The notes under the pieces: generated by a model
The model's database searches: none
Seen by the model: the letters and a program-made list of their open reading frames with translations, nothing else
What the model was told of the DNA's origin: nothing
Source: an uncultured Nitrospiraceae bacterium
GTDB lineage: Bacteria; Nitrospirota; 9FT-COMBO-42-15; HDB-SIOI813
NCBI GenBank assembly: GCA_964611625.1
Contig: CAZTAM010000002.1
Location: 89,168 to 153,167 of the forward strand
Length of the DNA stretch: 64,000 nucleotides
Reading direction: 5' to 3'
Part shown: positions 3,075 through 38,207 of the stretch, one piece after another
How positions within the stretch are numbered: the first letter of the stretch is position 1
Layout: each line of letters begins with the position of its first letter
Program-made: the position numbers and the translations under genes

Positions 3075-5855
3075 TTAATTATGATCTGATACCAGTTGAT
3101 TGCCGCTGTCCACTTGGCTCGAAATTATTTCACGCAAACGCAGCAATACAAATCCGGCTTCGTCATAATTACCAAGTTCTGTCTGTATCATTTTGACAGC
3201 CAGGCTAATGTTGCCTTTCGTAAGGTAATTATTGATTCTTTTAATAATATCTTTCAGATGCGGCTTTTTTTTGACGGCCTTGACAAAGGACACACCCAAT
3301 ATCTTGAAGGAATCGCTTATCTTTATTTCATGGAATGAGTTTGTAACATTTATGTCAAATCGCGGAAAGGTAATCGGTTCGGAGGAGTCATTGAGCGTAA
3401 ACCAGAACCAGTGTCCCCCGGGGGAGAATAGATCATTTCCAAGGACTTTCTGCATTTCCTCATATTTTTCTTTTACCCTCACAATCTCCCTGTCAAAGCT
3501 ATGGTCCGCCGAGTCAAAAGCAATTCCGTTACGGGAGACGAAATCCACTACGGCAACAGACTGTTCTACCGCAGAATCAATGTTTCCAAGTCTTACCCTC
3601 GGGCCTTCCCAGTTGTTCCCTCTCCAAAGCCTTTGCCCGTTGTAGAGAGAATTTTCCCGCGGGATATATCTGGCGTCTGATAGATCATGCATAATAACCA
3701 GATTAGGTAGGGAGGATATCTTTGGTAGAATTGAACCTAAAACACACTCTGCTACATCAAAACCATGCGCATCCCAAAAGAGCAGACACCGTTTGACCCC
3801 CTTAAACAGTGCGTTATAATCGAATGTAAGGATGTTTCCATTCAGTATATGAAGATTATTAAACCAGTCTTCTTCTACTACATCAAGAACCCTGTGTTGA
3901 GTGAGGTTCTCCCAGTCATTTGAGACGCACAGGCTTACAACCCTGCATTCCAGCCCCTCTTGTCTCAGGTTGTTAGCTACCTCTGTATAGGCGCATGTAG
4001 AGTTACCACGACCTCGACCCAGTTCAAGGATGAGGTCGGGCTTGAATTCAAGTGCAGAGGCCATCAGCTGGGCCCACTGAGTCGTCAAAAGGTCACCCTT
4101 GTGATCGACTGCATCCGAAAGGTTGATAATCCGGTCGTGCAGAGACTGAAGCTTGAAACGCTGGTTCCAGTATGCCTTAGCCGGAGTAAAGGGCCTGTGG
4201 TCAGGGATGACCTCGCCACAAATGCTATCCATGGATTCCCTAAAGGCATCATGTCTTTTCATATTAATAAAAGTAAGGTTTTCCTCCTGACCATCGTTCT
4301 GGGATTCGATCTTAACGAGCCCGAATCCTTTCGACAGCATCTCGGATATAACCTTGTTTTTATCTGAGGCCCCTTCGTATATTTGTTCAGACGTTACCGT
4401 TACCTCAAGCTGCAGTTTCTTTATCTTTTGTATCTCATGGCCTGCCGACATTACAACATCCAGATCATGCCCCTGGGCATCTATCTTTACGAATTCAACT
4501 TCGCTAAATGAGAGTCTCTCAAGTAGCTCATCAAGACGCATCACAGGGACCACCCTTTTTTCAACAACGTCAAGGCCGGATTTGTCCCTCCATTCAGCTA
4601 AACCATTCTCATTGAAAGGCCTGAGTGAGCTTGAAACATGATTACTGGTGACATAAAAATCGGCAATCCCTTTTTCGGGTCCGACAGCTGAAGGAATTGC
4701 AAAAAGGCGGGAATGTCTGCTGTTCAGATGATTGTACTTTTCCAGTATCGGCTCAAAGGCTATTATTGCAAGATCTTTATTGTCATCAAGATATGGAAGT
4801 GTAGTCTCACCTTCGTGGGCGCCAACGTCAATCCAGACTTTTCTGATTCCGTTGTGAAATACGATTTTTCCGGTCTCACTATCAGTGACCAGATAATCTT
4901 CAATCTTTACCGGCTGCTGTGACAGGTTTGACAGTTTGTCGGGAACAACTTCTGTTACTTCAAGCCTGAAATTAAGCAGGCCCCAGTCGTCACCGTTTAA
5001 TACAGCCGGCTTTTCTTCCTCTAACATCTTCCGACAGTCTTTCTCATATCTCTCATAATCAGTAAAAGGCCTCTTTGCATGTTCGGATCTGTCATGTTCC
5101 TGGTGGTAAATTGGTCCGCCGATAATTACCTGTTCAAGTCCGAGCGCCCTGGCCATAAAACAGATGTAACCGTCAATGAAACTGTGACTCTTCAGTTCCG
5201 GATACCCCCTGAGTCTGTGCCACTTATCAGCAGACATGAGGAAGAAGTCACCAGCAGCGTTAGTATGGACCCTGTTTTCAGAATCTGAAGAGAGAGATGG
5301 GATTGAACGGTATCCATCTGTTAAAGGTAGAGTGCCATCGGGCAGATTGACCCTGAAAGCCAGATCATGCGATAGAAGAAGCTGCCTGTCTGCAGGAAGA
5401 GCAGCAGGGATATTATGTTTGACATCATAGCGGTTGGCCCTGTAATAGCAATCCTCTGACAACTTATCAGAAGACAGATATTGAAAAAGTTCTCTGCTGA
5501 ACAGGATATCAGGGTTGGTTGCAACGATATATTTGCCTGACGCACGTCTTATACCGACATTCTTGGCAAGATATTCAAACATGGGCATTTTGTCAGAATT
5601 ATCAATCTGACTGTGGACATCTTTTGGAACTGATATTATGCGGCCCTTAATTCTGGGCCATTTTATGGCATAAAGCAGCTTCTGTTTTTCAGATGGGGGG
5701 TTCCATTCCACAACTATCAATTCAGAGTCAAGACTGTACTCTTTGCATAGTTCGACATAGATATTAATAAAATTCTGAAACCTGTACAGGAAATCCCCTC
5801 CATAGTTGTCGTTTCTTGCAGCAACAACGAAGCTAAAATCAGGTTTATTGTTCAT
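3075..5855 (-). CDS. Multidomain sugar-modifying enzyme: N-terminal GT-A-like glycosyltransferase, central FkbM-family methyltransferase, C-terminal class I (TylF/CmcI-like) O-methyltransferase
   Basis: 926 aa. N-terminus FSFVVAARNDNYGG..IVVEWNPP..ATNPDILF (DxD-like). Middle VWIDVGAHEGETTLPYL...FEP (FkbM motif GAHxGxxT). C-terminus LILELGRGRGNSTCAY...FWDAHGFD (SAM-binding G-x-G motif). 4-nt overlap with the upstream gene. Confidence 0.6.
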   Translation of the reverse strand: MNNKPDFSFVVAARNDNYGGDFLYRFQNFINIYVELCKEYSLDSELIVVEWNPPSEKQKLLYAIKWPRIKGRIISVPKDVHSQIDNSDKMPMFEYLAKNVGIRRASGKYIVATNPDILFSRELFQYLSSDKLSEDCYYRANRYDVKHNIPAALPADRQLLLSHDLAFRVNLPDGTLPLTDGYRSIPSLSSDSENRVHTNAAGDFFLMSADKWHRLRGYPELKSHSFIDGYICFMARALGLEQVIIGGPIYHQEHDRSEHAKRPFTDYERYEKDCRKMLEEEKPAVLNGDDWGLLNFRLEVTEVVPDKLSNLSQQPVKIEDYLVTDSETGKIVFHNGIRKVWIDVGAHEGETTLPYLDDNKDLAIIAFEPILEKYNHLNSRHSRLFAIPSAVGPEKGIADFYVTSNHVSSSLRPFNENGLAEWRDKSGLDVVEKRVVPVMRLDELLERLSFSEVEFVKIDAQGHDLDVVMSAGHEIQKIKKLQLEVTVTSEQIYEGASDKNKVISEMLSKGFGLVKIESQNDGQEENLTFINMKRHDAFRESMDSICGEVIPDHRPFTPAKAYWNQRFKLQSLHDRIINLSDAVDHKGDLLTTQWAQLMASALEFKPDLILELGRGRGNSTCAYTEVANNLRQEGLECRVVSLCVSNDWENLTQHRVLDVVEEDWFNNLHILNGNILTFDYNALFKGVKRCLLFWDAHGFDVAECVLGSILPKISSLPNLVIMHDLSDARYIPRENSLYNGQRLWRGNNWEGPRVRLGNIDSAVEQSVAVVDFVSRNGIAFDSADHSFDREIVRVKEKYEEMQKVLGNDLFSPGGHWFWFTLNDSSEPITFPRFDINVTNSFHEIKISDSFKILGVSFVKAVKKKPHLKDIIKRINNYLTKGNISLAVKMIQTELGNYDEAGFVLLRLREIISSQVDSGNQLVSDHN

Positions 5856-12810: not shown

Positions 12811-13666
12811 CTATTTTAAGAGCTGTAGCGCCATCTGTGGAATCGTATTAGCCTGTGCTAAAACAGCCATTGAAGCCTGCGTTAATATCTGGTTTTTGGT
12901 GAATATAGCCGTCTCCATTGCGAAATCAGCATCCCTGATACGAGACTCTGCTGCTGAGAAATTCTCAGAAGCTATCCTCAAATTAGAGATCGTTATCTCC
13001 AGCCTGTTCTGAGAGGCGCCAATATCACCCCTCTTACCTGCAACGTTTGAAATTGCACTGTCAATCATGGATAGAGCTGTGGCTGCACTTGCGACAACAG
13101 AGATTGTTGTAGCGGCGCCTGTAAGTCCGAGGGCGCTCTGAGCGTGCAGAGAACCAGCAGCACTAAGTCCTGAAAGAACCGCTACTGTGTTGCCGCTTGC
13201 GTTCTGGAATCCTACCTGCAATGATATGCCTGTTGCACTGAGTGTACCATTCAGCAGTTTCGTTCCGTTAAATTCGGTAACATCAGCAATCCTGTTTATC
13301 TCTGCCGTCAGCGACTGATATTCCTGGTCAAGCTTTCCTCTTTCTGTATCGCCGAGGCTTCCATTGGCTGCCTGCTGTGCCAATTCCCTCATTCTGATCA
13401 GTATGTTGCTTATCTCACCCATGGCGCCCTCTGCCACCTGTGTAAGACTCACCCCATCCTGAGAGTTTCTGATTGCCTGATTGATGCTTCGGCCATGGGC
13501 CCTTAACTTCTCTGAAATGGCCAGACCTGCGGCATCATCCTTTGCAGAATTAATCCTGAGACCTGAAGACAGTCTCTGTATCGAAAGGGTTAGAGATTCG
13601 TTGTTTTTTGTAAGGCTTCTTTGAGCTGTAAGAGATGCAAAGTTCGTATTGATTACTAATGCCATG
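12811..13666 (-). CDS. fliC: Flagellin
   Basis: MALVINTNFASLTAQRSLTKNNESLTLSIQRLSSGLRINSAKDDAAGLAISE and C-terminal ...NTIPQMALQLLK are the conserved flagellin N- and C-terminal domains. A strong GGGAGGAAAG RBS precedes the ATG at 13666; the ORF-track start at 13698 is upstream of the RBS. The protein is short, about 285 aa. Confidence 0.92.
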
Positions 13667-13802
13667 TTACTTTCCTCCCTGTTTTTTGTTGATACCAAAC
13701 CTGTGTTGGTTGGTATTGGGCGTCCTTGCCCTTGTTAGTTACTATGTTTATTCACCTCCTTCTTTTTTTTTATTTTAAATGTAATTGTCCTGTTGGCTTG
13801 TT

Positions 13803-13829
13803 TTTTCGGAATACTATCAGGAAACTTTA
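13803..13829 (-). promoter_or_regulatory. Sigma-28 (FliA)-type promoter for the flagellin operon
   Basis: The minus strand reads TAAAGTTT-N11-TCCGAAAA against the consensus TAAAGTTT-N11-GCCGATAA. It lies about 140 nt upstream of the flagellin ATG. The match was made by eye. Confidence 0.5.
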
Positions 13830-13908
13830 GACATTGTTTTTATGCCATAGTCGTTTTACAGCATTATACAGCACGCATGCAGGGAGCAGAGTATTAAGGG
13901 GATAAGTT

Positions 13909-14361
13909 CTAAGGACTGGGGACAGATATATCTTGTAATACAGGATATCGCAGCGGGTATTTTTCACCTGACAAAACTATCTGTTTTGCCTCAAGCGTCT
14001 TAAGATTTACAATAAGAGGTCCCTGGAGATTTACCGTCATCAGTTCCGGCATTTCATGGGGTATGGTTACTATTGCAAATATGCTGTATCCGTTGTGGCT
14101 GTTTATATTAAGTTCTCTCAAGTCATGCACCTCTATATCACTAAAATATTCAGAACAGAAGAGCAAAGGGTCCATTACCACAAATGTCAGATCAGGATCA
14201 TCTACCGCCTGAAGCCATTTGAACGGTATTTCAGGGTTATTCAAAGTATCTAATACGACGAATCTTTTTACATCAGGAAAACCAAGTAAGCCACTGTGAA
14301 ATGTTATAACCTTATCTTTATCTATTTCAATTTCGCCAAATCGGGATGTACAGATTTTCAT
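13909..14361 (-). CDS. fliW: Flagellar assembly factor FliW
   Basis: MKICTSRFGEIEIDKDKVITFHSGLLGFPDVKRFVVLDTL...FKWLQAVDDPDLTFVVMDP is the FliW family signature. Confidence 0.88.
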   Translation of the reverse strand: MKICTSRFGEIEIDKDKVITFHSGLLGFPDVKRFVVLDTLNNPEIPFKWLQAVDDPDLTFVVMDPLLFCSEYFSDIEVHDLRELNINSHNGYSIFAIVTIPHEMPELMTVNLQGPLIVNLKTLEAKQIVLSGEKYPLRYPVLQDISVPSP

Positions 14362-14370
14362 ATACCTGCC

Positions 14371-14613
14371 TTATGATCCTTTTCTTTTATCTGTCCACAG
14401 ATTGAATAGTCTTTGCATATGCTCTGTTGTCGAAGCAGCGGCCTTTATATTTTCTTCTTTGATCTTTTCATAAATCTCGTCACGATGAACTTTTGTATCT
14501 TTTGGGGCATCTATACCAATACTGACCTGATTCCCTTTTATCTCCAGGATGACAATTCTTATGTCCTTGCCAATCCAGATCCCTTCGCCTGACCTCCTTG
14601 TCAGAATTAACAT
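14371..14613 (-). CDS. csrA: Carbon storage regulator CsrA (flagellar type)
   Basis: [51 protein letters not shown] is the CsrA signature. The start is moved to the internal Met at 14613; the ORF-track start is at 14631. Confidence 0.9.
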
Positions 14614-14648
14614 CATCGCCCTCCTTGGCACTTCATTTAATTATCATT

Positions 14649-15542
14649 TCACCTCAGAAAATCCATAATTGATTGTTGCAGCACTCTGGCTGCCGTTGCC
14701 CTAGATATTTCGAGCATATTCTGCTGCAAGGCTAGTTGTGATATCAAGCTTGTAATATCTGCATCCTCTGTATCACTCCTATACTTTAATAGATTATATT
14801 GCAATGTGTCTATATGGTTCTTTGCAAGCTCCAGCCTGCTTAATTTCACGCCAATCTCTGCACGCCTGTCGTTAATCTGATCCATCCCGGTATCAAGTTT
14901 TGTCATTGCAGCGCCAATAGCAGCAGTATCATTATCATTCATTGCTGTCTTAAGATCACCCATAGCAGCAAGTATATCTGTACCATCACCTGAAGAACCA
15001 AAAACAGCATAACCTGGAATATTTATTGACATGGTGTTTCCGGCATCTATTTCCACATCCATAAATCCATCATCGGAAGAAGTTCCGGTATAATTGCCTG
15101 CATCATCATAAGGTGCAACATCCGTCCTGAAACCTGCAAAGATGTATCTGTTATCATATGTTGTATTTGCTGTTTGCTTCACCTGTTCATATAACTGATC
15201 AACCTCCATAGCCATGGTTCTTCTGTCAGCGGCGCTATATGTCCCGTTGAGGGCAGACAATGCGAGCTCTTTTGCCCGCAGAAGCACATCCTGTGTCGCG
15301 GATACTGCAGTCTCAGTTGCATTCAGGAATGCAGCAGCATTATCTATATTTCGTTGATATTGTCCTGCTTTTGCAATGGCCGAATTATAGTTGATGACTC
15401 TTGCAGCTCCTGCAGGATCATCTGAAGGTTTATTTAACTTCTTACCGGATGAGACGCTGTTCTGGAGGTCCAGTAACTTCTCTGAGTTCCTCTGCATATT
15501 CCCCATAACAGTGTTATAAAGTACTTTACTTGAAACGCGCAT
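14649..15542 (-). CDS. flgL: Hook-filament junction protein FlgL (HAP3)
   Basis: MRVSSKVLYNTVMGNMQRNSEKLLDLQNSVSSGKKLNKPSDDP is flagellin-like. The C-terminus ...ATAARVLQQSIMDFLR is the FlgL end. Confidence 0.88.
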   Translation of the reverse strand: MRVSSKVLYNTVMGNMQRNSEKLLDLQNSVSSGKKLNKPSDDPAGAARVINYNSAIAKAGQYQRNIDNAAAFLNATETAVSATQDVLLRAKELALSALNGTYSAADRRTMAMEVDQLYEQVKQTANTTYDNRYIFAGFRTDVAPYDDAGNYTGTSSDDGFMDVEIDAGNTMSINIPGYAVFGSSGDGTDILAAMGDLKTAMNDNDTAAIGAAMTKLDTGMDQINDRRAEIGVKLSRLELAKNHIDTLQYNLLKYRSDTEDADITSLISQLALQQNMLEISRATAARVLQQSIMDFLR

Positions 15543-17747: not shown

Positions 17748-18074
17748 TCACTCCCCGGATAATGCATCAAGAATATGTTCACGCAATAATTTCGCAGCTG
17801 TTTGTTCCGCACTGACATTGTATTCGCCCAGCAGCATCTCATTTCCAATAGATGCAATCTTATCTTCCCTGACATCAGGTAAGCGATTGATCACTTCTCT
17901 AATCCTGCTGTATAATAAAGCCCGTCCTGATATATGGACATCATTACTTGCTAATGACCTGTTTATGTCAGAACCTTGTTTAGGTCTGGAAAGGGTCTCT
18001 TTTATGACCAATGTTTTTTCTGCTTCTTTACTATTAAGTACATTATTATCTGTTATCATTGCAGTAATCTTCAT
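17748..18074 (-). CDS. flgM: Anti-sigma-28 factor FlgM
   Basis: 108 aa with C-terminal ...NRLPDVREDKIASIGNEMLLGEYNVSAEQTAAKLLREHILD, an FlgM-like C-terminal helix. It precedes flgN-flgK. GAGAGG RBS. Confidence 0.75.
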   Translation of the reverse strand: MKITAMITDNNVLNSKEAEKTLVIKETLSRPKQGSDINRSLASNDVHISGRALLYSRIREVINRLPDVREDKIASIGNEMLLGEYNVSAEQTAAKLLREHILDALSGE

Positions 18075-18110: not shown

Positions 18111-18139
18111 ATATCGGTATGCTGGCATATAATGTTTAT
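18111..18139 (-). promoter_or_regulatory. Candidate sigma-28-type promoter upstream of flgM
   Basis: The minus strand reads TAAACAT-N16-ACCGATAT (6/8 to GCCGATAA). The spacing is 1 nt longer than consensus. It lies about 35 nt upstream of the flgM ATG. Confidence 0.3.
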
Positions 18140-22703: not shown

Positions 22704-22748
22704 TGATCCCTCCCTTCAAACATTCAGCAGACCTGAGTTGTGATAGTT

Positions 22749-22764
22749 AGCAATGTATGTACCA
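22749..22764 (-). promoter_or_regulatory. Sigma-54 (-24/-12) promoter candidate for the flgF-flgG-flgA-flgH-flgI operon
   Basis: The minus strand reads TGGTAC-ATACA-TTGCT, with exactly 10 nt between GG and GC (consensus TGGCAC-N5-TTGCW). The predicted start site is about 35 nt upstream of the flgF ATG. Confidence 0.5.
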
Positions 22765-23037
22765 TTTGTAATTCAACCGAAATAAAACATAATATCTTAA
22801 TGTTTATCGGTAGTTAGACATACGGCTTATCTCCGGGCATTTAACTGCAGCGACAGGCATATAGGAATTTTTTGCCGGGCAGCATAATCATATATGCCTG
22901 GTTGCGTACTACTAACTGTTTCACTGTTAACCTCGATATTTTATTACGTATCAAGATACATTATCATCAAATTACCTATGACGATCGTCGCAATTAATCT
23001 ACCTTTACTATTCACATAATACCATCCAGTAATTAGT

Positions 23038-23064
23038 TAAAGTCTCCTGTGACTTAACCGATAA
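23038..23064 (+). promoter_or_regulatory. Sigma-28-type promoter for the merR-like/motA/motB operon
   Basis: TAAAGTCT-N11-ACCGATAA against TAAAGTTT-N11-GCCGATAA (7/8 in the -10). It ends about 13 nt before the ATG at 23078, leaving a very short leader. Confidence 0.55.
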
Positions 23065-23077
23065 TTTCACCGTCATT

Positions 23078-23527
23078 ATGTCGCAAGAAACTGATATACA
23101 GCCGGTATATACAATTCGAGTCGCATCCTCTCTCACGGGTGTTTCTTCAGGGACTATACGTGAATATGAGCGTCAGGGTCTGCTTAGAACTCACAGGGAC
23201 TCTAAAAACAACCATCGTCTCTTCACACAGGCGGAAATAAAATGGATTACCCACATCTGGCATCTAATACACAAGGAAGGCCTGAATTATGAGGGTATAA
23301 GGCGGCTTCTTCTTATTACTCCATGCTGGAAAGTGCTTAAGTGTCCGACGGATTTGAAAAATATTTGTGAGGTCTATCTGGATTTAAAATCTGCCTGCTG
23401 GTCACTGGATACACTGCCAAAATGCTGTGTTATGAATAACAGGAAGTGTCAGACATGCAGGGTTTATGACTCGGCACGCGATAATCCATACTTAGTGCCG
23501 TCCATTTTTATAAAATCAGGGAATTGA
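23078..23527 (+). CDS. MerR-family transcriptional regulator with a Cys-rich C-terminal domain
   Basis: YTIRVASSLTGVSSGTIREYERQGLL is a MerR-type HTH. The C-terminal 70 aa contain 9 cysteines (PCWKVLKCP..ICEV..ACW..KCCVMNNRKCQTCRV). It lies immediately upstream of motA with an 8-nt gap. Confidence 0.6.
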   Translation: MSQETDIQPVYTIRVASSLTGVSSGTIREYERQGLLRTHRDSKNNHRLFTQAEIKWITHIWHLIHKEGLNYEGIRRLLLITPCWKVLKCPTDLKNICEVYLDLKSACWSLDTLPKCCVMNNRKCQTCRVYDSARDNPYLVPSIFIKSGN

Positions 23528-23535
23528 AATAGAAA

Positions 23536-24303
23536 ATGGATATTCTAATCCCTATAGGTATTGTATTTAGTATAGCAGCCATTCTTATCGGGCAGGCTTT
23601 GGAAGGCGGGCATGTCGGATCTATCATGCAGTTTACAGCCTTTCTAATAGTAATCGGAGGCACTATGGGGGCAGTAATGGTCAACTATCCCCTTAAACCT
23701 TTTTTGATGGCATTTAAGCTTGCTATCCAGGCAGTCTTTCCAGGAAAGACCGATTATGAAGCATTCATATCTCAACTTGAGAACTATGCACAGGTTGCAA
23801 GAAAAGAAGGCATTCTTGCACTGGAATCAAGGGTTAAAGACGTCACTGACCCATTTCTCAGCCGCGGACTCCAATATGTTATTGATGGAACTGAACCGGA
23901 TACTCTTAAGAAGATCCTGGAGATAGAGATGTCATATCAGGAAGAACGTGAAATGCTTTCCGCCAAGGTATTCGAAACAGCTGGCGGGTTTGCTCCAACC
24001 GTAGGTATCCTGGGAGCTGTACTTGGATTAATCCATGTAATGGAAAATCTTGCCGATCCGAGCAAACTGGGATCAGGTATTGCAACAGCATTCGTCGCCA
24101 CAGTTTATGGAGTCGGTTCGGCCAATTTGCTCTTCTTACCATTGGCTGGAAATATAAAGATAAAGATAAAAGGGAAGACTCTGATTAAAGAACTAACAAT
24201 AGAAGGTCTAATTGGTATAGCAACAGGAGAAAACCCAAGGCTGCTCAGGGAAAAACTAGAGGGTTTTATTGAAAAAACAAATAATAAACAAGCTAAGAAA
24301 TAG
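23536..24303 (+). CDS. motA: Flagellar stator protein MotA
   Basis: Four TM segments. ..GIATAFVATVYGVGSANLLFLPLAGNIKIK is a conserved MotA/PomA/TolQ motif. Confidence 0.9.
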   Translation: MDILIPIGIVFSIAAILIGQALEGGHVGSIMQFTAFLIVIGGTMGAVMVNYPLKPFLMAFKLAIQAVFPGKTDYEAFISQLENYAQVARKEGILALESRVKDVTDPFLSRGLQYVIDGTEPDTLKKILEIEMSYQEEREMLSAKVFETAGGFAPTVGILGAVLGLIHVMENLADPSKLGSGIATAFVATVYGVGSANLLFLPLAGNIKIKIKGKTLIKELTIEGLIGIATGENPRLLREKLEGFIEKTNNKQAKK

Positions 24304-24319: not shown

Positions 24320-25054
24320 ATGCCGAAGAAAAAACATGAAGACCACGAAAACCACGAAAGGTGGCTCGTATCATATGCTGATTTTATCACACTACTATTT
24401 GCCTTTTTTGTAGTTATGTACTCAACATCATCAATAAATGAGGGTAAATACAGGGCAGTAAGCGAATCAGCTCAGGCTGCCTTCAACCCGTCGTCGCAAA
24501 CTGCAAAAAAAATTGAGGTAGGGCCAAAGCTGTCCTCCGGAAGCAAGCCGCAGGGAAAAGTTGAATATATTGCAGCGATAAAGGGTGTAATGAAGGATTT
24601 TGAAAAGAGTAAAAAACTGGTTATCTTTCAGAACAGCAGGGGAATCGTTATCAGAGTCACAGATACCGCTCTTTTTGATTCAGGAAAGGCTGAAATCAAG
24701 AGTGACGCAGTTGAAGCGATTGACAACCTGGCGGGTGTTCTTACAAAAATCAGAAAAGATATTCAAATCGAAGGTCATACTGACGACATTCCCATTAACA
24801 GTCCTCTCTATCCGTCTAACTGGGAGTTATCATCGTCACGGGCAACCAGTATAGTACGCAGGTTTGTTAATATGGGTATGGAACCATCAAGACTAACTGC
24901 TATAGGTTATAGTGAGTTCCGTCCGATAGCAGCAAATGACACACCGGAAGGACGCAGCAAAAACCGGAGAGTTGACATTGTAGTATTAAACGATAAGCTT
25001 TCGTCAGATGACAAGCACTTCGCTAATCCATTTGCTGATCTGAAAATAGAATAA
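24320..25054 (+). CDS. motB: Flagellar stator protein MotB
   Basis: WLVSYADFITLLFAFFVVMYS is the plug/TM region with the conserved Asp. The C-terminal OmpA-like domain reads IEGHTDDIPIN..NWELSSSRATSIVRRF. Confidence 0.9.
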   Translation: MPKKKHEDHENHERWLVSYADFITLLFAFFVVMYSTSSINEGKYRAVSESAQAAFNPSSQTAKKIEVGPKLSSGSKPQGKVEYIAAIKGVMKDFEKSKKLVIFQNSRGIVIRVTDTALFDSGKAEIKSDAVEAIDNLAGVLTKIRKDIQIEGHTDDIPINSPLYPSNWELSSSRATSIVRRFVNMGMEPSRLTAIGYSEFRPIAANDTPEGRSKNRRVDIVVLNDKLSSDDKHFANPFADLKIE

Positions 25055-25130: not shown

Positions 25131-25436
25131 TTAAGCTATAATATCAATGTGTTTTAGTACATTCTCAATCTCTTCCTGATTATCTTCTTCCTTAGATTCC
25201 TTTTCATCACTATGTGATTCATCCCGCTGCTCTTTGCAGTCATCATTTACGCTTATTTCAACCCTGTCAGCCTGTTCCTTATCTTCGATCTTTTTTCCTT
25301 TGACTTCTGCACTCTTTTGTCCCTCAGATGTATACCTGGCCTGTTCTGCCTGCGCCTGCTGCTGCTGAACATGCTGAACTTTATCAACACCTGATATGTT
25401 AGAAACTATCTGCTGTATATTGCTTATACTTGACAT
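25131..25436 (-). CDS. Small acidic hypothetical protein (last gene of the minus-strand che block)
   Basis: 101 aa, Q- and E/K-rich (..HVQQQQAQAEQARY..DDCKEQRDESHSDEKESKEEDNQEEIEN). No recognisable domain. 15-nt gap to cheW. Confidence 0.4.
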   Translation of the reverse strand: MSSISNIQQIVSNISGVDKVQHVQQQQAQAEQARYTSEGQKSAEVKGKKIEDKEQADRVEISVNDDCKEQRDESHSDEKESKEEDNQEEIENVLKHIDIIA

Positions 25437-28936: not shown

Positions 28937-30064
28937 CTAATCAAAACCGAATTCTTTAAGGATATTATCCACAACATCCTGTTTTAGTGTTGGATTATCA
29001 GAATACTCCTTTAATGAGTTAATATCTTCATTGGAATTCTTAGACTTAAGTCCAAATGTAACGATCAGCTGCAAAAGACGTTTCTCGACATCCTCTATGA
29101 GCCCTACTATAGTCTTGATCTTTTGACCAGTTATATCCTGGAAGGAAAGTCCGGTAATTATGTCCAGAAGTATCTCTCTGTCTTCAGATATCAGATTCTT
29201 TACCTCTTCGAGTGATTTTGACGCATTATTACCACGTTCAGCGGATTCAGCATGATGCATTATCACATCATGATTATCAAGCACCTTCTCTACCTGACTC
29301 ATTATATTGTGAGTTGCCGTCTCCGTTGCTTTGGATATTTCAGATAACTGCATAGACGCCTGTGGTATTTTGTCTGATGCATGAGCAAGATTAGGTTCAG
29401 CAAATTGCATTTTTTTGATAGTAGCATTAATATATCTGGCAATATCTCCTAATTGTCCGTATAATTCTTCTTTTATTTCATGTTTGAAATCGCCCTGAGA
29501 CATTGCCCTGGCTGCATCCACAAGTTCTCCAATATCTTTATAAGTATCATCGTGTGGACTGTAACTGCAACTGTCCTCACACGTTTCCTGAACAGTGTCC
29601 GTAATATAATTGTTTTGGCTGTAGTCCTTGAATAACCTGGCCAGGTCCAGTACAACCGTAATATGGCCATTATTTCTTATGATCCCCCGTATATACTCTG
29701 AGCTCATACTTTTGGTAATTGCAGGCGCTTTCTCAAGGCTATCATCAGGAACTCTGATCACTTCTGAAACAGAATCCACCAGAATGCCTATTTTGTCTTC
29801 GTTAAAACCTACTATAATTATCCTGGTGTCCCGGGTAATTTCTCCCCCGTTTATACCCAGTTTACCACCAAGATCAATGACTGGGATTACAGCGCCGCGC
29901 AGGTCTATAACGCCGAGAACATTGCCAGGCAATTCAGGCATCCGGTTAATATGCTCATACCTGTTGATTTCATGTATGTCCGAGATATCAACTGCAAACC
30001 TTTCACCGCCAACGGAAAACCCGACTAATTGCGATACATGATCAAACTGTTTTTGTACCTGCAT
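28937..30064 (-). CDS. CheW-like domain fused to a CheZ-type CheY-P phosphatase
   Basis: The N-terminal 150 aa are a CheW domain (FAVDISDIHEINRYEHINRMPELPGNVLGVIDLRGAVIPVIDLGGKLG). The C-terminal 200 aa carry SFQDITGQKIKTIVGLIEDVEKRLLQLIV and the terminal KQDVVDNILKEFGFD. From memory these match E. coli CheZ catalytic Gln motif ([24 protein letters not shown]) and its C-terminal CheA-binding peptide (QDQVDDLLDSLGF). Confidence 0.7.
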   Translation of the reverse strand: MQVQKQFDHVSQLVGFSVGGERFAVDISDIHEINRYEHINRMPELPGNVLGVIDLRGAVIPVIDLGGKLGINGGEITRDTRIIIVGFNEDKIGILVDSVSEVIRVPDDSLEKAPAITKSMSSEYIRGIIRNNGHITVVLDLARLFKDYSQNNYITDTVQETCEDSCSYSPHDDTYKDIGELVDAARAMSQGDFKHEIKEELYGQLGDIARYINATIKKMQFAEPNLAHASDKIPQASMQLSEISKATETATHNIMSQVEKVLDNHDVIMHHAESAERGNNASKSLEEVKNLISEDREILLDIITGLSFQDITGQKIKTIVGLIEDVEKRLLQLIVTFGLKSKNSNEDINSLKEYSDNPTLKQDVVDNILKEFGFD

Positions 30065-30910: not shown

Positions 30911-31765
30911 CTATTTCTGATAAATCAGCACACTGTTAACACTTACAATTTTAAAAGCCCTCGTGACATTAAACAGCGATTCTGAATGTCCTATGAACAG
31001 ATAGCCGCCCGGAACCAGACTGTTGTACAGACTTGAAATGACTTTTTTTTTGGATGCTTCATCAAAGTATATCAGTACATTCCTGCAGAATATTATGTCC
31101 ATTCCCCGGTACATCCTGATCGCTGAATCGTCTGAAAGATTAATATTGCTGAATCTAACCAGCTTCTTGATTTCCGGTTTTATGATATATTTATTGCCGC
31201 CATCTTTCGTAAAATATTTATTAAGATGTTGGGGAATGACATTACGTACCGAATAATCATTATATTCTCCCCTTCTTGCTGAGCTTAATACTGCCTCGCT
31301 GATATCACTCCCATGTATCTCTATATCCCAATCCTTATACTCAGGAGCAGACAGTTTATCTGTAACCATCATTGATAATGTATAAGGCTCCTCTCCGGTA
31401 GAACATGCGGCGCTCCATATACGTATCTTCCTGCTTCCCTTAGCCTTGATCTTCTGAACTACATCCGGCAGGACTAAAGAATCAAATGCCTGCAGCTGAT
31501 TAGTATCCCTGAAAAAAAAAGTCTCATTGGTTGTTATGATATTAAATAGATTTATGAACTCTTTTTCCTTTCCCGCATCATACTTGAGAAATTCAATATA
31601 TTTTTCGTAATTCTCAAAACCGGCATCCTCAATGCGTCTTGAGAGCCTGTTTTCCAGTATATATTTCTTATTTTCTGGGAAATGCATGCCGCTTCTGTCA
31701 TAAATCATATCTCTCAGAGAGTGATATGCATTATCACTCATTTTAATAGTTTTAGTAGTTAACAT
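30911..31765 (-). CDS. cheR: Chemotaxis methyltransferase CheR
   Basis: ..LRDMIYDRSGMHFPENKKYILENRLSRR.. is the CheR N-terminal domain. ..ETFFFRD..IRIWSAACSTGEEPYTLSM is the SAM-MTase signature. Confidence 0.9.
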   Translation of the reverse strand: MLTTKTIKMSDNAYHSLRDMIYDRSGMHFPENKKYILENRLSRRIEDAGFENYEKYIEFLKYDAGKEKEFINLFNIITTNETFFFRDTNQLQAFDSLVLPDVVQKIKAKGSRKIRIWSAACSTGEEPYTLSMMVTDKLSAPEYKDWDIEIHGSDISEAVLSSARRGEYNDYSVRNVIPQHLNKYFTKDGGNKYIIKPEIKKLVRFSNINLSDDSAIRMYRGMDIIFCRNVLIYFDEASKKKVISSLYNSLVPGGYLFIGHSESLFNVTRAFKIVSVNSVLIYQK

Positions 31766-33737
31766 ATTTTGATGACATCAGCTTATTGTATGCATCTACA
31801 GCAGCATCCCGGATTATCTGATCTTCTTCCGATGCGGCGTTTCGAAGTATATCCTCAGACTCATATACCCTAAGCTCTCCCAATGCCCATATAGCGCTTT
31901 TCCGGACTGTATAATTATCACTGGCGGCAAGCCTGATAATAAAGGAATTAGCTGTTTGTGTCTTCTGTCTTACGAGCCCTTCAATCGCCTTTAATTGAAC
32001 CCATTCGTTATTATCATCAAGCAGCTCAATAAGTTCATCCGTGGCCCTGTAATCCGTGCATTCACTTAACAATTGAGCCACTATCATTCGAACTTCTTCC
32101 TTTTCATCATGAGCAGCTATTATCAGATTTTCAATAAAATTATTCTTTTTGGTACAGCTGAGAGTTTCCAGGCATGCCCTTCTTACTCTCCAGTTTTCAT
32201 CATTCAATAAACCGATTATAAGCTCTTCAGAATCAATCCATTCTAATTCCCCCAATCCACGCACTATTATTTCTCTTACAGAGGGATTTTTGCTGTTCAG
32301 ACTGGCTAAAAGACCCTCAGCCAGCTCCTGCCTCTTATATCTCCGCCCTATTTCGATTAACACATCAACTATCTTACCAATTACATTGTGATACTCCTCG
32401 ACCCAAAGCTGTTTTAAAAGAGGCTGTATCACAACTATTGATTCAATTGATCCCAGAGCCTCAACTGCCGCCTCCCTGATATGTCCTTCACCGTCTGACA
32501 GATGCTCCGAAATAAAACTGAGTGCCTTTTTACCGCCAATATTACCCATGGCGTAAAGAATCTCCTTTTTAAGATCTCTCTCAACGTCTTCAAATAAAGA
32601 TGCAAGCGATGAAAGAGATTTTACAGATCTTCTGAGACCAAGCACCTTTACAGAAACCCACCTTCTCGTATGATTTTCATGACTGAGTGAGTCAATAAGC
32701 GTATTCTCATCACAAACAATATCCACCAACTCAACCGTTTTATTTACCATATCCTGGTTTTCAATGTCTATAATCTCAGTAAGTTTCATAACCTCTCTGG
32801 AACACTTGCTTCCATCAACTGTTATAAAGGCCTGCAGGATGTGCATTATATTTTCAGGCTGCGTTCCATCAATGGTATCAGCAACCCTGGCGAGATGAGT
32901 AATAAATTCATCCCTGCCAAGCTCATCAATTAGGGAGCAAATGTTTCCCTGAGTCATGGTTACTATACCCATTACAGCTGTATCCATTATTTCCTGATTA
33001 ACAATATCTATTATCTCAAGCATTCCGGCTACAGACTCTTTACCTCCTATATGGGATAAAGCATCAATAGCCATTGACTGAACATCAATATTGTCTGAAG
33101 ACTTGATTAGATTAACAAGTGGTCTGATAGCCTTACTGTTACCTTGTCTTCCAAGTGATTCAACAGCAAACAGTGTAACCCAATCGTCCCGCCCAAGAAG
33201 ATCAATGAGGTAGTCTACTATCGACTGGTCAGTAATCCTGCCAAGTCCTTCAATTGCAGAACTTCTCACATTGTCATTATTATCTTTTAGCATCTCAATC
33301 AGGATTGGCGTCGCAGCAGGAAGTTCCAGCCGGCCAAGGATATCCGCTATCATCTTACGAACATCCTCGTCTCTGTCATTTATATGAGCATGAAGTAGTC
33401 CGAGCCCGCTGCCTCCTGTCTTCTCAAGTATCTCCTGTGCCAGATTTTTTACAGCTACGCGTTTGTCAGCCAACAGGGGGAGAAGATTATACACTGCAGC
33501 TTCATCATCATAAACAAGCAGTGCTTCCATAGCTGCCTGTTGAACACCAAGGTCATCATCCTGCAGTGACTTAATAAGAGGATAAAGCAGCCTGCCATCC
33601 CTGATGCCGGTTATCATCCTGATAGCATCGCAGCGGATGACACTATCATTATCACCGATCAGCTTCAATGACATATGTATATCCTGTTCAGAACCGGCCA
33701 TCATGGCAACCCTTTTATCGGAAACATCACAGAGCAC
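31752..33737 (-). CDS. HEAT-repeat (PBS-lyase-like) protein embedded in the che operon
   Basis: 661 aa with many ..D.DVR..A..ALG.IG.. repeats, e.g. DEDVRKMIADILGRL, DNVRSSAIEGLGRI, NWRVRRACLETLS, EEVRMIVAQLLS. It overlaps cheR by 14 nt. Confidence 0.7.
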   Translation of the reverse strand: MLCDVSDKRVAMMAGSEQDIHMSLKLIGDNDSVIRCDAIRMITGIRDGRLLYPLIKSLQDDDLGVQQAAMEALLVYDDEAAVYNLLPLLADKRVAVKNLAQEILEKTGGSGLGLLHAHINDRDEDVRKMIADILGRLELPAATPILIEMLKDNNDNVRSSAIEGLGRITDQSIVDYLIDLLGRDDWVTLFAVESLGRQGNSKAIRPLVNLIKSSDNIDVQSMAIDALSHIGGKESVAGMLEIIDIVNQEIMDTAVMGIVTMTQGNICSLIDELGRDEFITHLARVADTIDGTQPENIMHILQAFITVDGSKCSREVMKLTEIIDIENQDMVNKTVELVDIVCDENTLIDSLSHENHTRRWVSVKVLGLRRSVKSLSSLASLFEDVERDLKKEILYAMGNIGGKKALSFISEHLSDGEGHIREAAVEALGSIESIVVIQPLLKQLWVEEYHNVIGKIVDVLIEIGRRYKRQELAEGLLASLNSKNPSVREIIVRGLGELEWIDSEELIIGLLNDENWRVRRACLETLSCTKKNNFIENLIIAAHDEKEEVRMIVAQLLSECTDYRATDELIELLDDNNEWVQLKAIEGLVRQKTQTANSFIIRLAASDNYTVRKSAIWALGELRVYESEDILRNAASEEDQIIRDAAVDAYNKLMSSKYVNY

Positions 33738-33771
33738 CTTAATAGTTATATCTCCCTGTATAATCCCGGAG

Positions 33772-36105: not shown

Positions 36106-37431
36106 TTAACCTCTCAGGATCTGCCGCAACTGCATGTTCTCAGCTGGTAAACAAATTTTGAAAGTTGTACCAGAGCCGACTTTACTGTTAACTGTAATCT
36201 CACCATTATGTTTACGGATAATTGCGTATGCAACGGATAACCCCAGCCCTGTTCCCTTTCCAACAGGTTTCGTTGTAAAAAATGGCTCAAAAATCCTCGG
36301 CAGATGATCCTGGGAAATTCCACTGCCGGTATCACTTATACTGATAACAATATTATCGTTTTCACTGCAGGTGCTGATACTTATTATTCCCTTGCCATCT
36401 ATTGCATGCGCGGCATTTACAAGGATATTCATGAAGACCTGATTTAATTGCTGCGGATAGCACAAGACCTGAGGAATATCCCCATACAGTGTCTTAACCT
36501 CTGCCTTATATTTAATCTCATTCCAGACTATGTTCAGCGTACTCTCCAACCCCTTGTTAATATCTGAGAATTCAGGTTTATCCGATCCAGTGTGTGAGAA
36601 TTCCTTTAAATCCTTGACTATCTTGCTTATACGCCTCATACCATCCTGAGTCTCTGCGAATATCTGTTCAATATCATCCAGCAAAAAAACCACATCTATC
36701 TTCTGTTTAAAGGACTCAATATCCTTTAAATGAGCAGATACACCTTCATCAGAGATCCCGCTGCAACTCTGAACAAGGGTCTCATATTCTTTCATAAGAC
36801 CTCTTATATCAGTAATATATTCATTAAGCGTCTTTAAGTTGCTTAATACAAATCCAGTGGGATTGTTTATCTCATGGGCTATTCCTGCAGAGAGCTGTCC
36901 GATTGATGCCATTTTATCGCTCTGAACCAACTGCGCCTTAGTCTGCTGTAATTTCATGAGTGCCTCATCACTTGCCTCTTTTGCAACTCTAAGCTCATCA
37001 GTCCTTCTGGCTACACGTTCTTCTAATTCTTCGTTTAACTCAGTAAGCTCAGTGATTAGCTGATATATCTCCCTCATATCTCTTGCAATAAGAACTATGG
37101 CCTCAATCCTGTTATCTTCACTTTTTACGAATGAACCATTCATGATTACAGGTATCCGTCCGCCATTATTGCTAAGGAGATTAAATACCTTATTATGCAT
37201 TTGTTCATTAGTCTCAAACCTGGTAATCAGCTCAGATATATTCAGGTCATGATTATCAAAGAGTTTCCAGGCAGGGATACCGTCAATTTCGTCAAAGCTG
37301 TACTCGAGAGCATTCAGGGCTGCACGGTTGACAAACCTGACTGTCCCGTCGGGATTAGCCACAATAAGAATATCCGCCATATTACCAAGGATATTCTCAT
37401 AGAACTGAGGCTTATAGCCAATATTCGTCAC
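36106..37431 (-). CDS. PAS-domain sensor histidine kinase (cytoplasmic)
   Basis: N-terminal PAS-like region. The HisKA domain reads ..SAGIAHEINNPTGFVLSNL. The HATPase domain reads ..ISISDTGSGISQDHLPRIFEPFFTTKPVGKGTGLGLSVAY. It overlaps the fliA stop by 4 nt. Confidence 0.8.
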   Translation of the reverse strand: MTNIGYKPQFYENILGNMADILIVANPDGTVRFVNRAALNALEYSFDEIDGIPAWKLFDNHDLNISELITRFETNEQMHNKVFNLLSNNGGRIPVIMNGSFVKSEDNRIEAIVLIARDMREIYQLITELTELNEELEERVARRTDELRVAKEASDEALMKLQQTKAQLVQSDKMASIGQLSAGIAHEINNPTGFVLSNLKTLNEYITDIRGLMKEYETLVQSCSGISDEGVSAHLKDIESFKQKIDVVFLLDDIEQIFAETQDGMRRISKIVKDLKEFSHTGSDKPEFSDINKGLESTLNIVWNEIKYKAEVKTLYGDIPQVLCYPQQLNQVFMNILVNAAHAIDGKGIISISTCSENDNIVISISDTGSGISQDHLPRIFEPFFTTKPVGKGTGLGLSVAYAIIRKHNGEITVNSKVGSGTTFKICLPAENMQLRQILRG

Positions 37432-38207
37432 CCGTTCTTCTCCTTTAACTTGCCTTTCAAACGCAGCATTGCCTGAGTATGCAGCTGCGAAACCCTTGAT
37501 TCAGTAACTTCAAGAATCCTTCCGATTTCTTTCATAGTCAGTTCGTTATAGTAATATAGTGAGACTACCTTTCGTTCCTTATCCGGCAGCTTATCAATCG
37601 CACTTGTCAATGTCTTCTGCCTGTCCTTTGTCATAAGAAGTGACAGCGGATCACGTTTTTCAGGATCCCTGATTGTCTCAAGCATATCTCTGTCATTATC
37701 ATCACGATGCATGCCAAGGTCTTCAATGCTTATTATGGAAGAACTTCGTGCCTGAGTCAGAAAGTCCTGATACTCATTAATATTCATCTTTAATGCAGCT
37801 GCAATTTCCTCCTCTGAAGGCGGCCTTCCATATTCCTTCTCCAGGGCTGACACGGTTTTGTACAAGAGTCCTGATTTTTCCTTCACTGACCTGGGCACCC
37901 AGTCCATAGCCCGTATCTCATCAAGCATTGCGCCCCTTATACGAAATTCTGCATATGTCTTAAAGAGAGTCTCCTTAGCCGGGTCATATTTATCCATTGC
38001 ATCCATTAGCCCTATAATCCCGGCACTGATTAGATCATCAATATCAATATCAGGCTGCAGCCTGTAAGATAGTCTGTATGCCATATACTTTATCTTAGAG
38101 GCATACTCCTGAATAAGCTTGTCTCTTGCATCAGGATCCATGATTCCTTTTTTTGCCGCCTTACCCTTTGAACGATACTTATTGACCTTGTTAATAATCT
38201 TGTCCAT
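37428..38207 (-). CDS. fliA: Flagellar sigma factor FliA (sigma-28)
   Basis: Region 2 reads ..DDLISAGIIGLMDAMDKYDPAKETLFKTYAEFRIRGAMLDEIR. Region 4 reads ..LYYYNELTMKEIGRILEVTESRVSQLH. Confidence 0.9.
   Translation of the reverse strand: MDKIINKVNKYRSKGKAAKKGIMDPDARDKLIQEYASKIKYMAYRLSYRLQPDIDIDDLISAGIIGLMDAMDKYDPAKETLFKTYAEFRIRGAMLDEIRAMDWVPRSVKEKSGLLYKTVSALEKEYGRPPSEEEIAAALKMNINEYQDFLTQARSSSIISIEDLGMHRDDNDRDMLETIRDPEKRDPLSLLMTKDRQKTLTSAIDKLPDKERKVVSLYYYNELTMKEIGRILEVTESRVSQLHTQAMLRLKGKLKEKNG

What the first reader, a model, noticed from the sequence alone, without database searches (positions are those of the whole stretch)
23078..23527. Cys-rich MerR-family regulator co-transcribed with the stator genes motA/motB
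A 149-aa protein has a clear MerR HTH and a C-terminal tail carrying nine cysteines (CW..KC..C..C..CC..C..C). It sits 8 nt upstream of motA under a sigma-28-like promoter. MerR proteins with Cys clusters typically sense metals or redox state via Zn, Cu, or Fe-S as in SoxR. Its fixed position in front of the stator genes suggests metal- or redox-responsive control of motor function or of late flagellar genes. I do not recognise this arrangement as described.
Basis: partly seen in the sequence, partly recalled or inferred. Interest (0 to 1): 0.6.

Follow-up and report, generated by a model that had tools for sequence, protein, structure and literature searches.

The report
Cysteine-rich MerR regulator in motility operons
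A small DNA-binding protein made with the flagellar stator genes carries an undescribed seven-to-eight-cysteine module, also found on chemoreceptors and other signalling proteins, which probably lets these Nitrospirota tune motility genes to redox or sulfur chemistry.

Summary
ORF 23078-23527 (+) encodes a 149-aa protein with a genuine MerR winged helix (residues 10-78) and a cysteine-rich tail. It has 8 Cys, not 9. It lies 8 nt upstream of motA-motB, behind the best sigma-28 match in the window.

The sigma-28 promoter and the flgF< >gene-motA-motB layout recur in relatives of 66% identity or more. In relatives at 45-53% identity the gene sits inside chemotaxis operons instead (HDOD-gene-cheW, or CheW-domain-gene-cheW). 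The conserved link is therefore to motility loci in general, not to the stator.

It is not a SoxR, CueR, ZntR or HspR type. Similarity to every solved MerR protein stops at residue ~78, and no long dimerisation helix is predicted.

The Cys module has the core C-W-x4-C-x7-C-x9-C-W…C…C-x2-C-x-V-Y. It has no Pfam, NCBIfam or PDB match, yet it is widespread. It occurs alone and fused to MerR, MCP, HD-GYP, histidine-kinase, receiver and ThiF domains.

Four of five sampled distant MerR fusions head sulfur-compound reductase/YeeE/rhodanese operons.

Best reading: a redox-, sulfur- or metal-sensing transcription factor of the late flagellar class. Cofactor, signal and targets are inferred, not shown.

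The parts
23038..23064 (+). Sigma-28 (FliA) type promoter, TAAAG-N15-ACCGATAA. It ends 13 nt before the ATG, so the leader is very short and has no Shine-Dalgarno sequence.
   Evidence: Best match in the window. The blocks are conserved in alignments A2 and A7. Present in 16 of 16 motAB-type loci. Similar sites precede flgM and flagellin.
23078..23527 (+). Gene for the 149-aa MerR-HTH plus Cys-rich-module regulator.
23105..23311 (+). MerR-type winged helix-turn-helix, residues 10-78.
   Evidence: Pfam MerR_1 E=3.6e-15. AF2 pLDDT 89-98. Foldseek and phmmer matches to GlnR, NmlR, CueR, CadR and CarH DNA-binding domains over ~63-70 residues.
23321..23470 (+). Cys-rich module, residues 82-131: P-C-W-x4-C-x7-C-x9-C-W-x7-C-C-x6-C-x2-C-x-V-Y.
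   Evidence: Eight Cys invariant within the clade. Seven invariant in 136 MerR fusions and six in 43 more diverse ones. No Pfam, NCBIfam or PDB match. AF2 pLDDT ~85 with five short helices. About 109 representative proteins elsewhere carry it.
23536..24303 (+). motA, stator channel subunit and second cistron.
   Evidence: MotA_ExbB and MotA_N; NF006583 at 324 bits.
24320..25054 (+). motB, stator plug and peptidoglycan-binding subunit, third cistron.
   Evidence: MotB_plug and OmpA.
22979..22993 (.). Conserved dyad TGAC-N4-GTC(G/A)CAA, about 45 nt upstream of the sigma-28 -35 block. It is a candidate operator; which protein binds it is unknown.
   Evidence: Recognisable, with substitutions, in 16 of 17 related motAB-type loci plus the window, and absent at the aligned position in L037. 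It is not repeated elsewhere in the window above chance.
22748..22764 (-). Sigma-54 type promoter (TGGTAC-N5-TTGCTA on the minus strand) of the divergent flgF-flgG-flgA-flgH operon.
   Evidence: Invariant GCAA…TGTnCCA block in A7. My reading against the TGGCAC-N5-TTGC consensus.

Best explanation
The gene encodes a transcription factor built from a MerR-type winged helix joined directly to a ~50-residue module with seven or eight invariant cysteines. This module stands where MerR proteins normally have their long dimerisation helix and effector loop. In this organism it is the first cistron of a sigma-28-dependent (late flagellar) operon with motA and motB, so it is made only once FliA is active. 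The Cys module is an unannotated, widespread cytoplasmic input domain. It most likely holds a metal or iron-sulfur centre, or reactive thiols, whose state changes with redox or reactive-sulfur chemistry. That change would alter DNA binding and so adjust expression of motility and chemotaxis genes.

Shown here: the gene, the two domains, the promoter, the conserved placement in motility loci, and the domain's spread across signalling proteins.

Inferred: the cofactor, the signal, the direction of regulation and the target genes.
For: The HTH is genuine and keeps the MerR signature residues R28, E29, Y30 and E31.

The cysteines are invariant over wide divergence.

The same module is the only candidate input on MCPs (two C-terminal copies), HD-GYP, HATPase_c, REC and REC+MerR proteins, which is how sensory domains behave.

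All 29 related loci of the clade lie in flagellar or chemotaxis gene clusters. Eighteen have motA directly downstream, two are cut after divergent flgF, eight are HDOD/che-operon loci and three have a CheW-domain gene upstream.

The sigma-28 promoter is conserved, and sigma-28-like sites also precede flgM and flagellin in the window.

Distant MerR-Cys members are the first gene of PsrABC-like or multihaem reductase operons with YeeE-type transporters and rhodanese. They carry an 18-bp dyad right upstream, as expected of autoregulating dimeric factors that respond to sulfur or redox substrates.

The short leader without a Shine-Dalgarno sequence fits a low-abundance regulator placed ahead of abundant stator proteins.
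Against: No cofactor, ligand or DNA target has been demonstrated. The AF2 coordinates could not be inspected, so the cysteine geometry is unknown. The conserved dyad at 22979-22993 may instead belong to another factor, such as the activator of the divergent sigma-54 flgF promoter, and it has no further copies in the window. Embedding within che operons, sometimes with an overlapping stop and start next to a CheW-domain gene, is more typical of pathway components than of transcription factors. The sulfur link rests on five sampled loci of a different branch of the family.
Confidence: 0.45

Rival explanations
1. The Cys module is a purely structural zinc-binding fold that replaces the MerR coiled coil for dimerisation. 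The protein would then be a constitutive late-class regulator, for example a feedback link from sigma-28 activity to other genes, that senses nothing through its cysteines.
For: The cysteines are invariant and the small helical fold is predicted confidently. No coiled coil is available for dimerisation. The 18-bp dyads in the psr-type loci imply dimers.
Against: On MCPs, HD-GYP, kinase and receiver proteins the module is the only candidate input domain, and it also exists as a stand-alone small protein. That is hard to explain for a mere dimerisation scaffold. Distant members sit specifically at sulfur-respiration operons.
Confidence: 0.2
2. The protein is not primarily a transcription factor. 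It would be an accessory component of the chemosensory array or stator whose Cys module feeds a redox signal to CheW/CheA or MotAB by protein contact, with the HTH being secondary.
For: In relatives at 45-53% identity the gene lies inside che operons between HDOD and cheW, or overlaps a CheW-domain gene. The same module ends some MCPs. Here it sits directly before motA.
Against: The MerR DNA-binding signature is fully conserved. The near-leaderless, Shine-Dalgarno-less start suggests low copy number, unlike array or stator parts. Distant family members behave as operon-leading regulators with dyads.
Confidence: 0.12
3. It is a classical metal-responsive MerR (Zn, Cu, Cd or Hg type) or a SoxR-like [2Fe-2S] regulator that happens to lie next to motAB.
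For: MerR HTH plus many cysteines. There are weak full-length HMM alignments to ZntR and MerR models.
Against: Scores are 15-30 bits against cut-offs of 117-168. No dimerisation helix is predicted, and similarity to solved CueR, CadR and SoxR stops at residue ~78. There is no SoxR C-x2-C-x-C-x5-C motif (sequence). No efflux or detoxification gene is nearby. Placement in motility loci is conserved in 29 related loci.
Confidence: 0.05
4. It is an HspR-type heat-shock repressor, which is how JGI names many family members.
For: The best NCBIfam hit is HspR over residues 8-81. Source annotations read 'MerR/HspR'.
Against: The score is 55 bits against a cut-off of 105 and covers only the HTH. No dnaK, grpE, dnaJ, cbpA or clpB gene lies next to it in any of the loci examined.
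Confidence: 0.03

Closest known systems
Metal- and redox-sensing MerR regulators (MerR, CueR, ZntR, CadR, SoxR)
   Same: N-terminal MerR winged helix with the conserved R-x-Y-E signature, and cysteines in the C-terminal half.
   Different: No long alpha-5 coiled coil. The cysteines lie in a separate ~50-residue module rather than at the end of the dimerisation helix. Family-model scores are far below cut-off. The gene is in flagellar and chemotaxis loci under sigma-28, not next to efflux or detoxification genes.
MerR-type DNA-binding domains without the canonical coiled coil (GlnR/TnrA, CarA/CarH, RacA)
   Same: These are the closest solved sequences and folds: GlnR 4r4e, the CarA N-terminal domain 2jml, and CarH 5c8f. 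The wHTH is followed by something other than the MerR effector helix.
   Different: Their C-terminal parts (a glutamine-synthetase-binding tail, a B12-binding domain) are unrelated to the Cys module.
HspR
   Same: Best-scoring NCBIfam model for the HTH, and the name many databases give to family members.
   Different: Below cut-off, no chaperone-gene context, and HspR has no Cys module.
Thiol- or cluster-based redox and sulfane-sulfur sensors (SqrR/BigR, CstR, OxyR, WhiB-like proteins). Comparison from general knowledge and the titles and abstracts listed.
   Same: The proposed logic is the same: conserved cysteines or an Fe-S cluster report redox or reactive sulfur and change DNA binding. Distant family members head sulfur-compound operons.
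   Different: Different folds and families. No sequence relationship was found, and none of them is a MerR fusion or is linked to motility operons.
Sigma-28-dependent motility modulators encoded with late flagellar genes (e.g. YcgR/FlgZ PilZ proteins). Comparison from general knowledge.
   Same: A small signal-responsive protein made with late flagellar or stator genes.
   Different: Those bind c-di-GMP and act on the motor by protein contact. This protein has a DNA-binding domain and a Cys module.

Membership tests
MerR family (Pfam PF13411/PF00376) | N-terminal winged helix-turn-helix matching the family model above the gathering score | tested here: met
   MerR_1 at 56.3 bits against a cut-off of 21.6; MerR at 39.2 against 28.2. 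The fold matches GlnR, NmlR and CueR DNA-binding domains at 1-2 A rmsd over ~63-68 residues.
MerR family (canonical architecture) | Long antiparallel coiled-coil (alpha-5) dimerisation helix after the wHTH | tested here: not met
   The AF2 model (pLDDT 85.7) shows only short helices of 4-7 residues after residue 78. The junction GIRRLL-x3-PCW is conserved in 43 and in 136 fusions. Alignments to solved MerR proteins end at residue ~78.
MerR family (canonical mechanism) | Operator dyad inside a promoter with an over-long 19-20-bp spacer, activated by DNA distortion | tested here: inconclusive
   The gene's own promoter is a sigma-28 type with a normal 15-nt spacer and no dyad in it. A dyad lies ~45 nt upstream. 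Target promoters are unknown.
SoxR | C-terminal C-x2-C-x-C-x5-C [2Fe-2S] motif and a score above the TIGR01950 cut-off | tested here: not met
   15.2 bits against a cut-off of 116.9, covering the HTH only. The motif is absent from the sequence.
CueR / ZntR / CadR / MerR metal sensors | Equivalog model score, and metal-ligand cysteines at the end of the dimerisation helix and in the C-terminal loop | tested here: not met
   25-30 bits against cut-offs of 143-168. There is no dimerisation helix.
HspR | NF047375 equivalog score and linkage to chaperone genes | tested here: not met
   55.4 bits against a cut-off of 105. No chaperone genes lie in any locus examined.
Fe-S or Zn cluster-binding sensor domain (generic) | Bound metal or cluster ligated by the conserved cysteines | not testable with these tools
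   Only the cysteine invariance and a confident predicted fold are available.
Sigma-28 (class III/late) flagellar regulon | FliA-type promoter directly upstream, and fliA present | tested here: met
   One mismatch to TAAA-N15-GCCGATAA. Conserved in 16 of 16 motAB-type loci. fliA lies at 37428-38207. Actual transcription was not tested.
Pfam DUF2769 (PF10967) | Match above the gathering score | tested here: not met
   Best E=0.021 at 15.8 bits against a cut-off of 22.8, in 2 of 36 stand-alone members. There was no hit for the window protein.

The most novel reading that the evidence does not exclude
The Cys module is a new, widespread cytoplasmic sensory domain, either Fe-S-based or a direct sensor of polysulfide, thiosulfate or persulfide. 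It plugs into four output systems: transcription (MerR), chemotaxis (MCP C-termini), c-di-GMP turnover (HD-GYP) and two-component signalling (kinase, receiver). In one Nitrospirota lineage it has been recruited into the late flagellar and chemotaxis operons, so that stator and chemotaxis gene expression follows sulfur or redox state. That would be a transcriptional counterpart of energy taxis.
Probability: 0.3. Interest if true: 0.75.

Novelty: new variant of a known kind. Interest (0 to 1): 0.55.

Why it matters
Flagellar gene hierarchies outside the model Proteobacteria and Firmicutes are poorly known, and no regulator tied to stator or chemotaxis operons in Nitrospirota turned up in the papers I could search.

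The wider point concerns the C-terminal module. It is a conserved, unannotated cysteine domain present in at least a hundred 50%-identity clusters. It is attached to the main bacterial signalling outputs and sits at the head of sulfur-respiration operons in several phyla.

Identifying its cofactor and ligand would name a new input domain. It could also show how anaerobes link sulfur or redox chemistry to respiration, chemotaxis and motility. It would correct the widespread 'HspR' annotation as well.

Tried and rejected
- **SoxR, CueR, ZntR, MerR and HspR membership.** Rejected on model scores and architecture.
- **Known domain for the Cys module.** None in Pfam or NCBIfam for the window protein, for ten diverse carriers, or for 36 stand-alone members. 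There is only a sub-threshold DUF2769 hint.
- **PDB sequence profile of the module.** Chance-level hits only.
- **Foldseek against PDB with both models.** Only the HTH matches.
- **Long multi-stretch hits of the module profile.** These are RCC1-like repeats, so false positives.
- **Metagenome scan with the broad alignment.** It was rerun with the clade alignment.
- **Further copies of the upstream dyad in the window.** Not above chance.
- **Further copies of the module in the window or in related loci.** None.
- **Sigma-28 motif in the che-type loci.** Not found next to the gene.
- **Literature searches.** Searches on MerR with motA or flagella, 'two-CW domain', MerR with polysulfide reductase, MerR with Nitrospirae, and MerR with sulfane sulfur found nothing describing this protein or domain.

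Full report
**1. The observation**

The ORF at 23078-23527 (+) is real and encodes 149 residues. Pfam MerR_1 matches residues 11-78 at E=3.6e-15, well above the gathering score. The C-terminal half has eight cysteines: 83, 89, 97, 107, 116, 117, 124 and 127.

motA (23536-24303) and motB (24320-25054) follow on the same strand. The first gap is 8 nt, and there is no terminator-like site between the genes.

The site TAAAGTCTCCTGTGACTTAACCGATAA (23038-23064) is the only one-mismatch match in the window to TAAA-N15-GCCGATAA. A FliA/WhiG sigma factor is encoded at 37428-38207. Looser sigma-28-like sites precede flgM (17748-18074, -) and a flagellin gene (12811-13698, -), which is the expected late-class set.

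**2. Conservation and context of the orthologous clade**

A word-seeded protein search found 34 relatives at 46-91% identity. Those that carry a source name are called Nitrospirae or Nitrospirota. All eight cysteines are invariant in them, along with W108 and Y130; P114 and R122 are conserved in at least 90%.

Scans of genomes and metagenomes, plus exact-protein look-ups, gave 29 informative related loci. They fall into three groups:

- **Relatives of 66% identity or more.** All have flgG< flgF< >gene-motA-motB. This covers 18 related loci with motA directly downstream. L001 (77%) is cut just after the gene. L037 (59%) is also cut and shows only the divergent flgF.
- **Relatives at about 50% identity.** The gene lies inside a chemotaxis operon: HEAT-cheR-cheY-cheY-cheA-cheB-(mcp)-HDOD-gene-cheW-HD-GYP. 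These are loci L004-L008, L011, L022 and L038.
- **Relatives at 45-48% identity.** The gene follows a CheW-domain gene, sometimes with overlapping stop and start. It precedes cheW and, in L010, flgF-flgG-flgA-flgH.

The association with motility loci is therefore conserved. The association with the stator is clade-specific.

All 16 motAB-type loci that hold upstream sequence carry CTAAAGT-N~14-CCGATAA. The motif ends 13-14 nt before the ATG (29 nt in L003), with no Shine-Dalgarno sequence. The che-type loci lack the motif and have ordinary ribosome-binding sites.

Footprinting of the flgF-gene spacer shows three further conserved blocks:

- a sigma-54-type promoter for flgF on the minus strand (22748-22764);
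- a block at 22863-22898;
- a dyad TGAC-N4-GTC(G/A)CAA at 22979-22993.

The dyad is a candidate operator. It has no extra copies in the window.

**3. What the protein is not**

NCBIfam equivalog models all fall far below their cut-offs: HspR 55 against 105, ZntR 26-30 against 143-168, CueR 27 against 147, MerR 26 against 151, and SoxR 15 against 117.

A phmmer search against all PDB sequences aligns only residues 8-80. The best hits are GlnR and the CarA N-terminal domain.

The first AF2 model, built from 35 sequences, was weak in the Cys region. A second model from a 136-sequence alignment reached pLDDT 85.7 and pTM 0.80, with about 85 in the Cys region. It shows five short helices after residue 82 and no long alpha-5 helix. 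Foldseek against the PDB matched only the wHTH in both models.

So this is a MerR-type DNA-binding domain with a different C-terminal half.

**4. The Cys module**

A profile of residues 79-140 was searched against 1.84 billion cluster representatives and gave 160 hits at E<=1e-3. After removing RCC1-like repeat proteins, 109 proteins carry a near-full-length copy:

| Architecture | Count |
|---|---|
| Fused to a MerR HTH (including four REC+MerR proteins of ~350 aa) | 51 |
| Small or stand-alone proteins (some are probably truncated fragments of MerR fusions) | 41 |
| Other fusions | 17 |

The other fusions include:

- MCPs with two C-terminal copies;
- HD-GYP;
- HATPase_c;
- module+REC;
- module+ThiF;
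- membrane-anchored forms.

The core pattern is (P)C-W-x4-C-x7-C-x8-9-(P)C-W-…-C-x2-C-x-[VI]-[YF]. Six cysteines are invariant in 43 diverse MerR fusions and seven in 136.

No Pfam or NCBIfam model covers it, and neither does any PDB sequence. Being the sole candidate input on several kinds of signalling output is the hallmark of a sensory domain.

**5. The wider MerR-Cys family**

A profile search returned at least 366 clusters at E<=1e-10. Those named come from Melioribacteraceae, Calditrichota, Bacteroidota, Ignavibacteria and Marinimicrobia, and are often labelled 'MerR/HspR'. I looked at five of their loci.

- **Three loci (L015-L017).** The gene abuts a molybdopterin oxidoreductase, a 4Fe-4S subunit, NrfD, two Sulf_transp (YeeE/YedE-type) genes and a rhodanese.
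- **One locus (L043).** The gene precedes a multihaem cytochrome, cytochrome b, Sulf_transp, Sulf_transp-rhodanese and a thioredoxin.
- **One locus (L014).** The gene precedes an NrfD gene.

The three psr-type loci (L015-L017) have an 18-bp dyad (CTATA-N8-TATAG or TGATA-N8-TATCA) just upstream of the start codon. These members therefore look like autoregulating, operon-leading factors for sulfur-compound respiration.

**6. Mechanism**

Taken together, I read the window protein as a Cys-module-dependent transcription factor of the late flagellar class. FliA drives a near-leaderless transcript that gives a little regulator and much MotA and MotB. The Cys module would report redox, reactive-sulfur or metal state, and the wHTH would act on motility or chemotaxis promoters, possibly including its own region through the dyad at 22979-22993.

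The gene, domains, promoter, synteny and domain distribution are shown. The cofactor, signal, sign of regulation and targets are inferred.

The rivals, in order of weight, are:

- a purely structural Zn dimerisation module;
- a non-transcriptional accessory of the chemosensory array or stator;
- a classical metal MerR;
- an HspR.

The last two are contradicted by tested features.

**7. Novelty**

Searches of the held literature found no description of this protein, this arrangement or this domain. I class it as a new variant of a known kind: a MerR-type regulator with an undescribed sensory module and an undescribed placement in motility operons.

Noticed in passing
window 22748-22764 (-): A conserved sigma-54-type promoter (TGGTAC-N5-TTGCTA) lies upstream of flgF-flgG-flgA-flgH. 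The basal-body rod and ring operon is therefore probably RpoN-dependent, while the divergent stator operon is sigma-28-dependent. A sigma-54 activator (FlbD/FlgR-like) is at 59171-60523 (-).
   Followed up: partly
window 22854-22900: An imperfect 23-nt inverted repeat (CAGGCATATA…TATATGCCTG) overlaps a block conserved in five loci (AGGAATTTTCTGCC-N~12-AATATTGCC). It is possibly the enhancer for the flgF sigma-54 promoter. What binds it is unknown.
   Followed up: partly
window 18112-18138 (-) and 13803-13829 (-): Sigma-28-like sites lie upstream of flgM (17748-18074) and of a flagellin gene (12811-13698). This gives a coherent late regulon together with the merR-motAB operon.
   Followed up: partly
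window 23065-23080: The regulator's ATG lies only 13 nt after the -10 block and has no Shine-Dalgarno sequence. This holds in 15 of 16 related motAB-type loci and in the window, and suggests a leaderless or near-leaderless first cistron.
   Followed up: partly
window 28937-30064 (-): A single 375-aa protein combines an N-terminal CheW domain with a C-terminal CheZ phosphatase domain, inside the che operon.
   Followed up: no
window 31752-33737 (-): A 661-aa HEAT-repeat protein (PBS-lyase-like repeats) leads the che operon ahead of cheR. The same HEAT-cheR pairing occurs in L011 and L022. A sigma-28-like site (2 mismatches) overlaps its annotated GTG start at 33715-33741.
   Followed up: no
window 25131-25436 (-): A 101-aa, very acidic, Gln/Glu/Lys-rich ORF lies between motB and cheW. 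It has no family match but is conserved at 63-65% identity in L027 and L028.
   Followed up: no
L015 4958-4989; L016 4973-4994; L017 ~4975-4994: The psr-type MerR-Cys genes have an 18-32-bp dyad immediately upstream of the start codon (CTATA-N8-TATAG or TGATA-N8-TATCA). This is a probable operator for that branch of the family.
   Followed up: partly
P0055, P0109, P0121, P0143 (L018, L019): Proteins of about 350 aa combine a receiver domain, a long linker, the MerR HTH and the Cys module. They are response regulators with this unusual output and share the CC doublet and the (N/H)P-x-L tail with the window clade.
   Followed up: no
window 13909-14361 (-) and 12811-15542 (-): FliW lies between two flagellin-family genes, with FlaG and FliD downstream. 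This hints at FliW/CsrA-type post-transcriptional control of flagellin.
   Followed up: no
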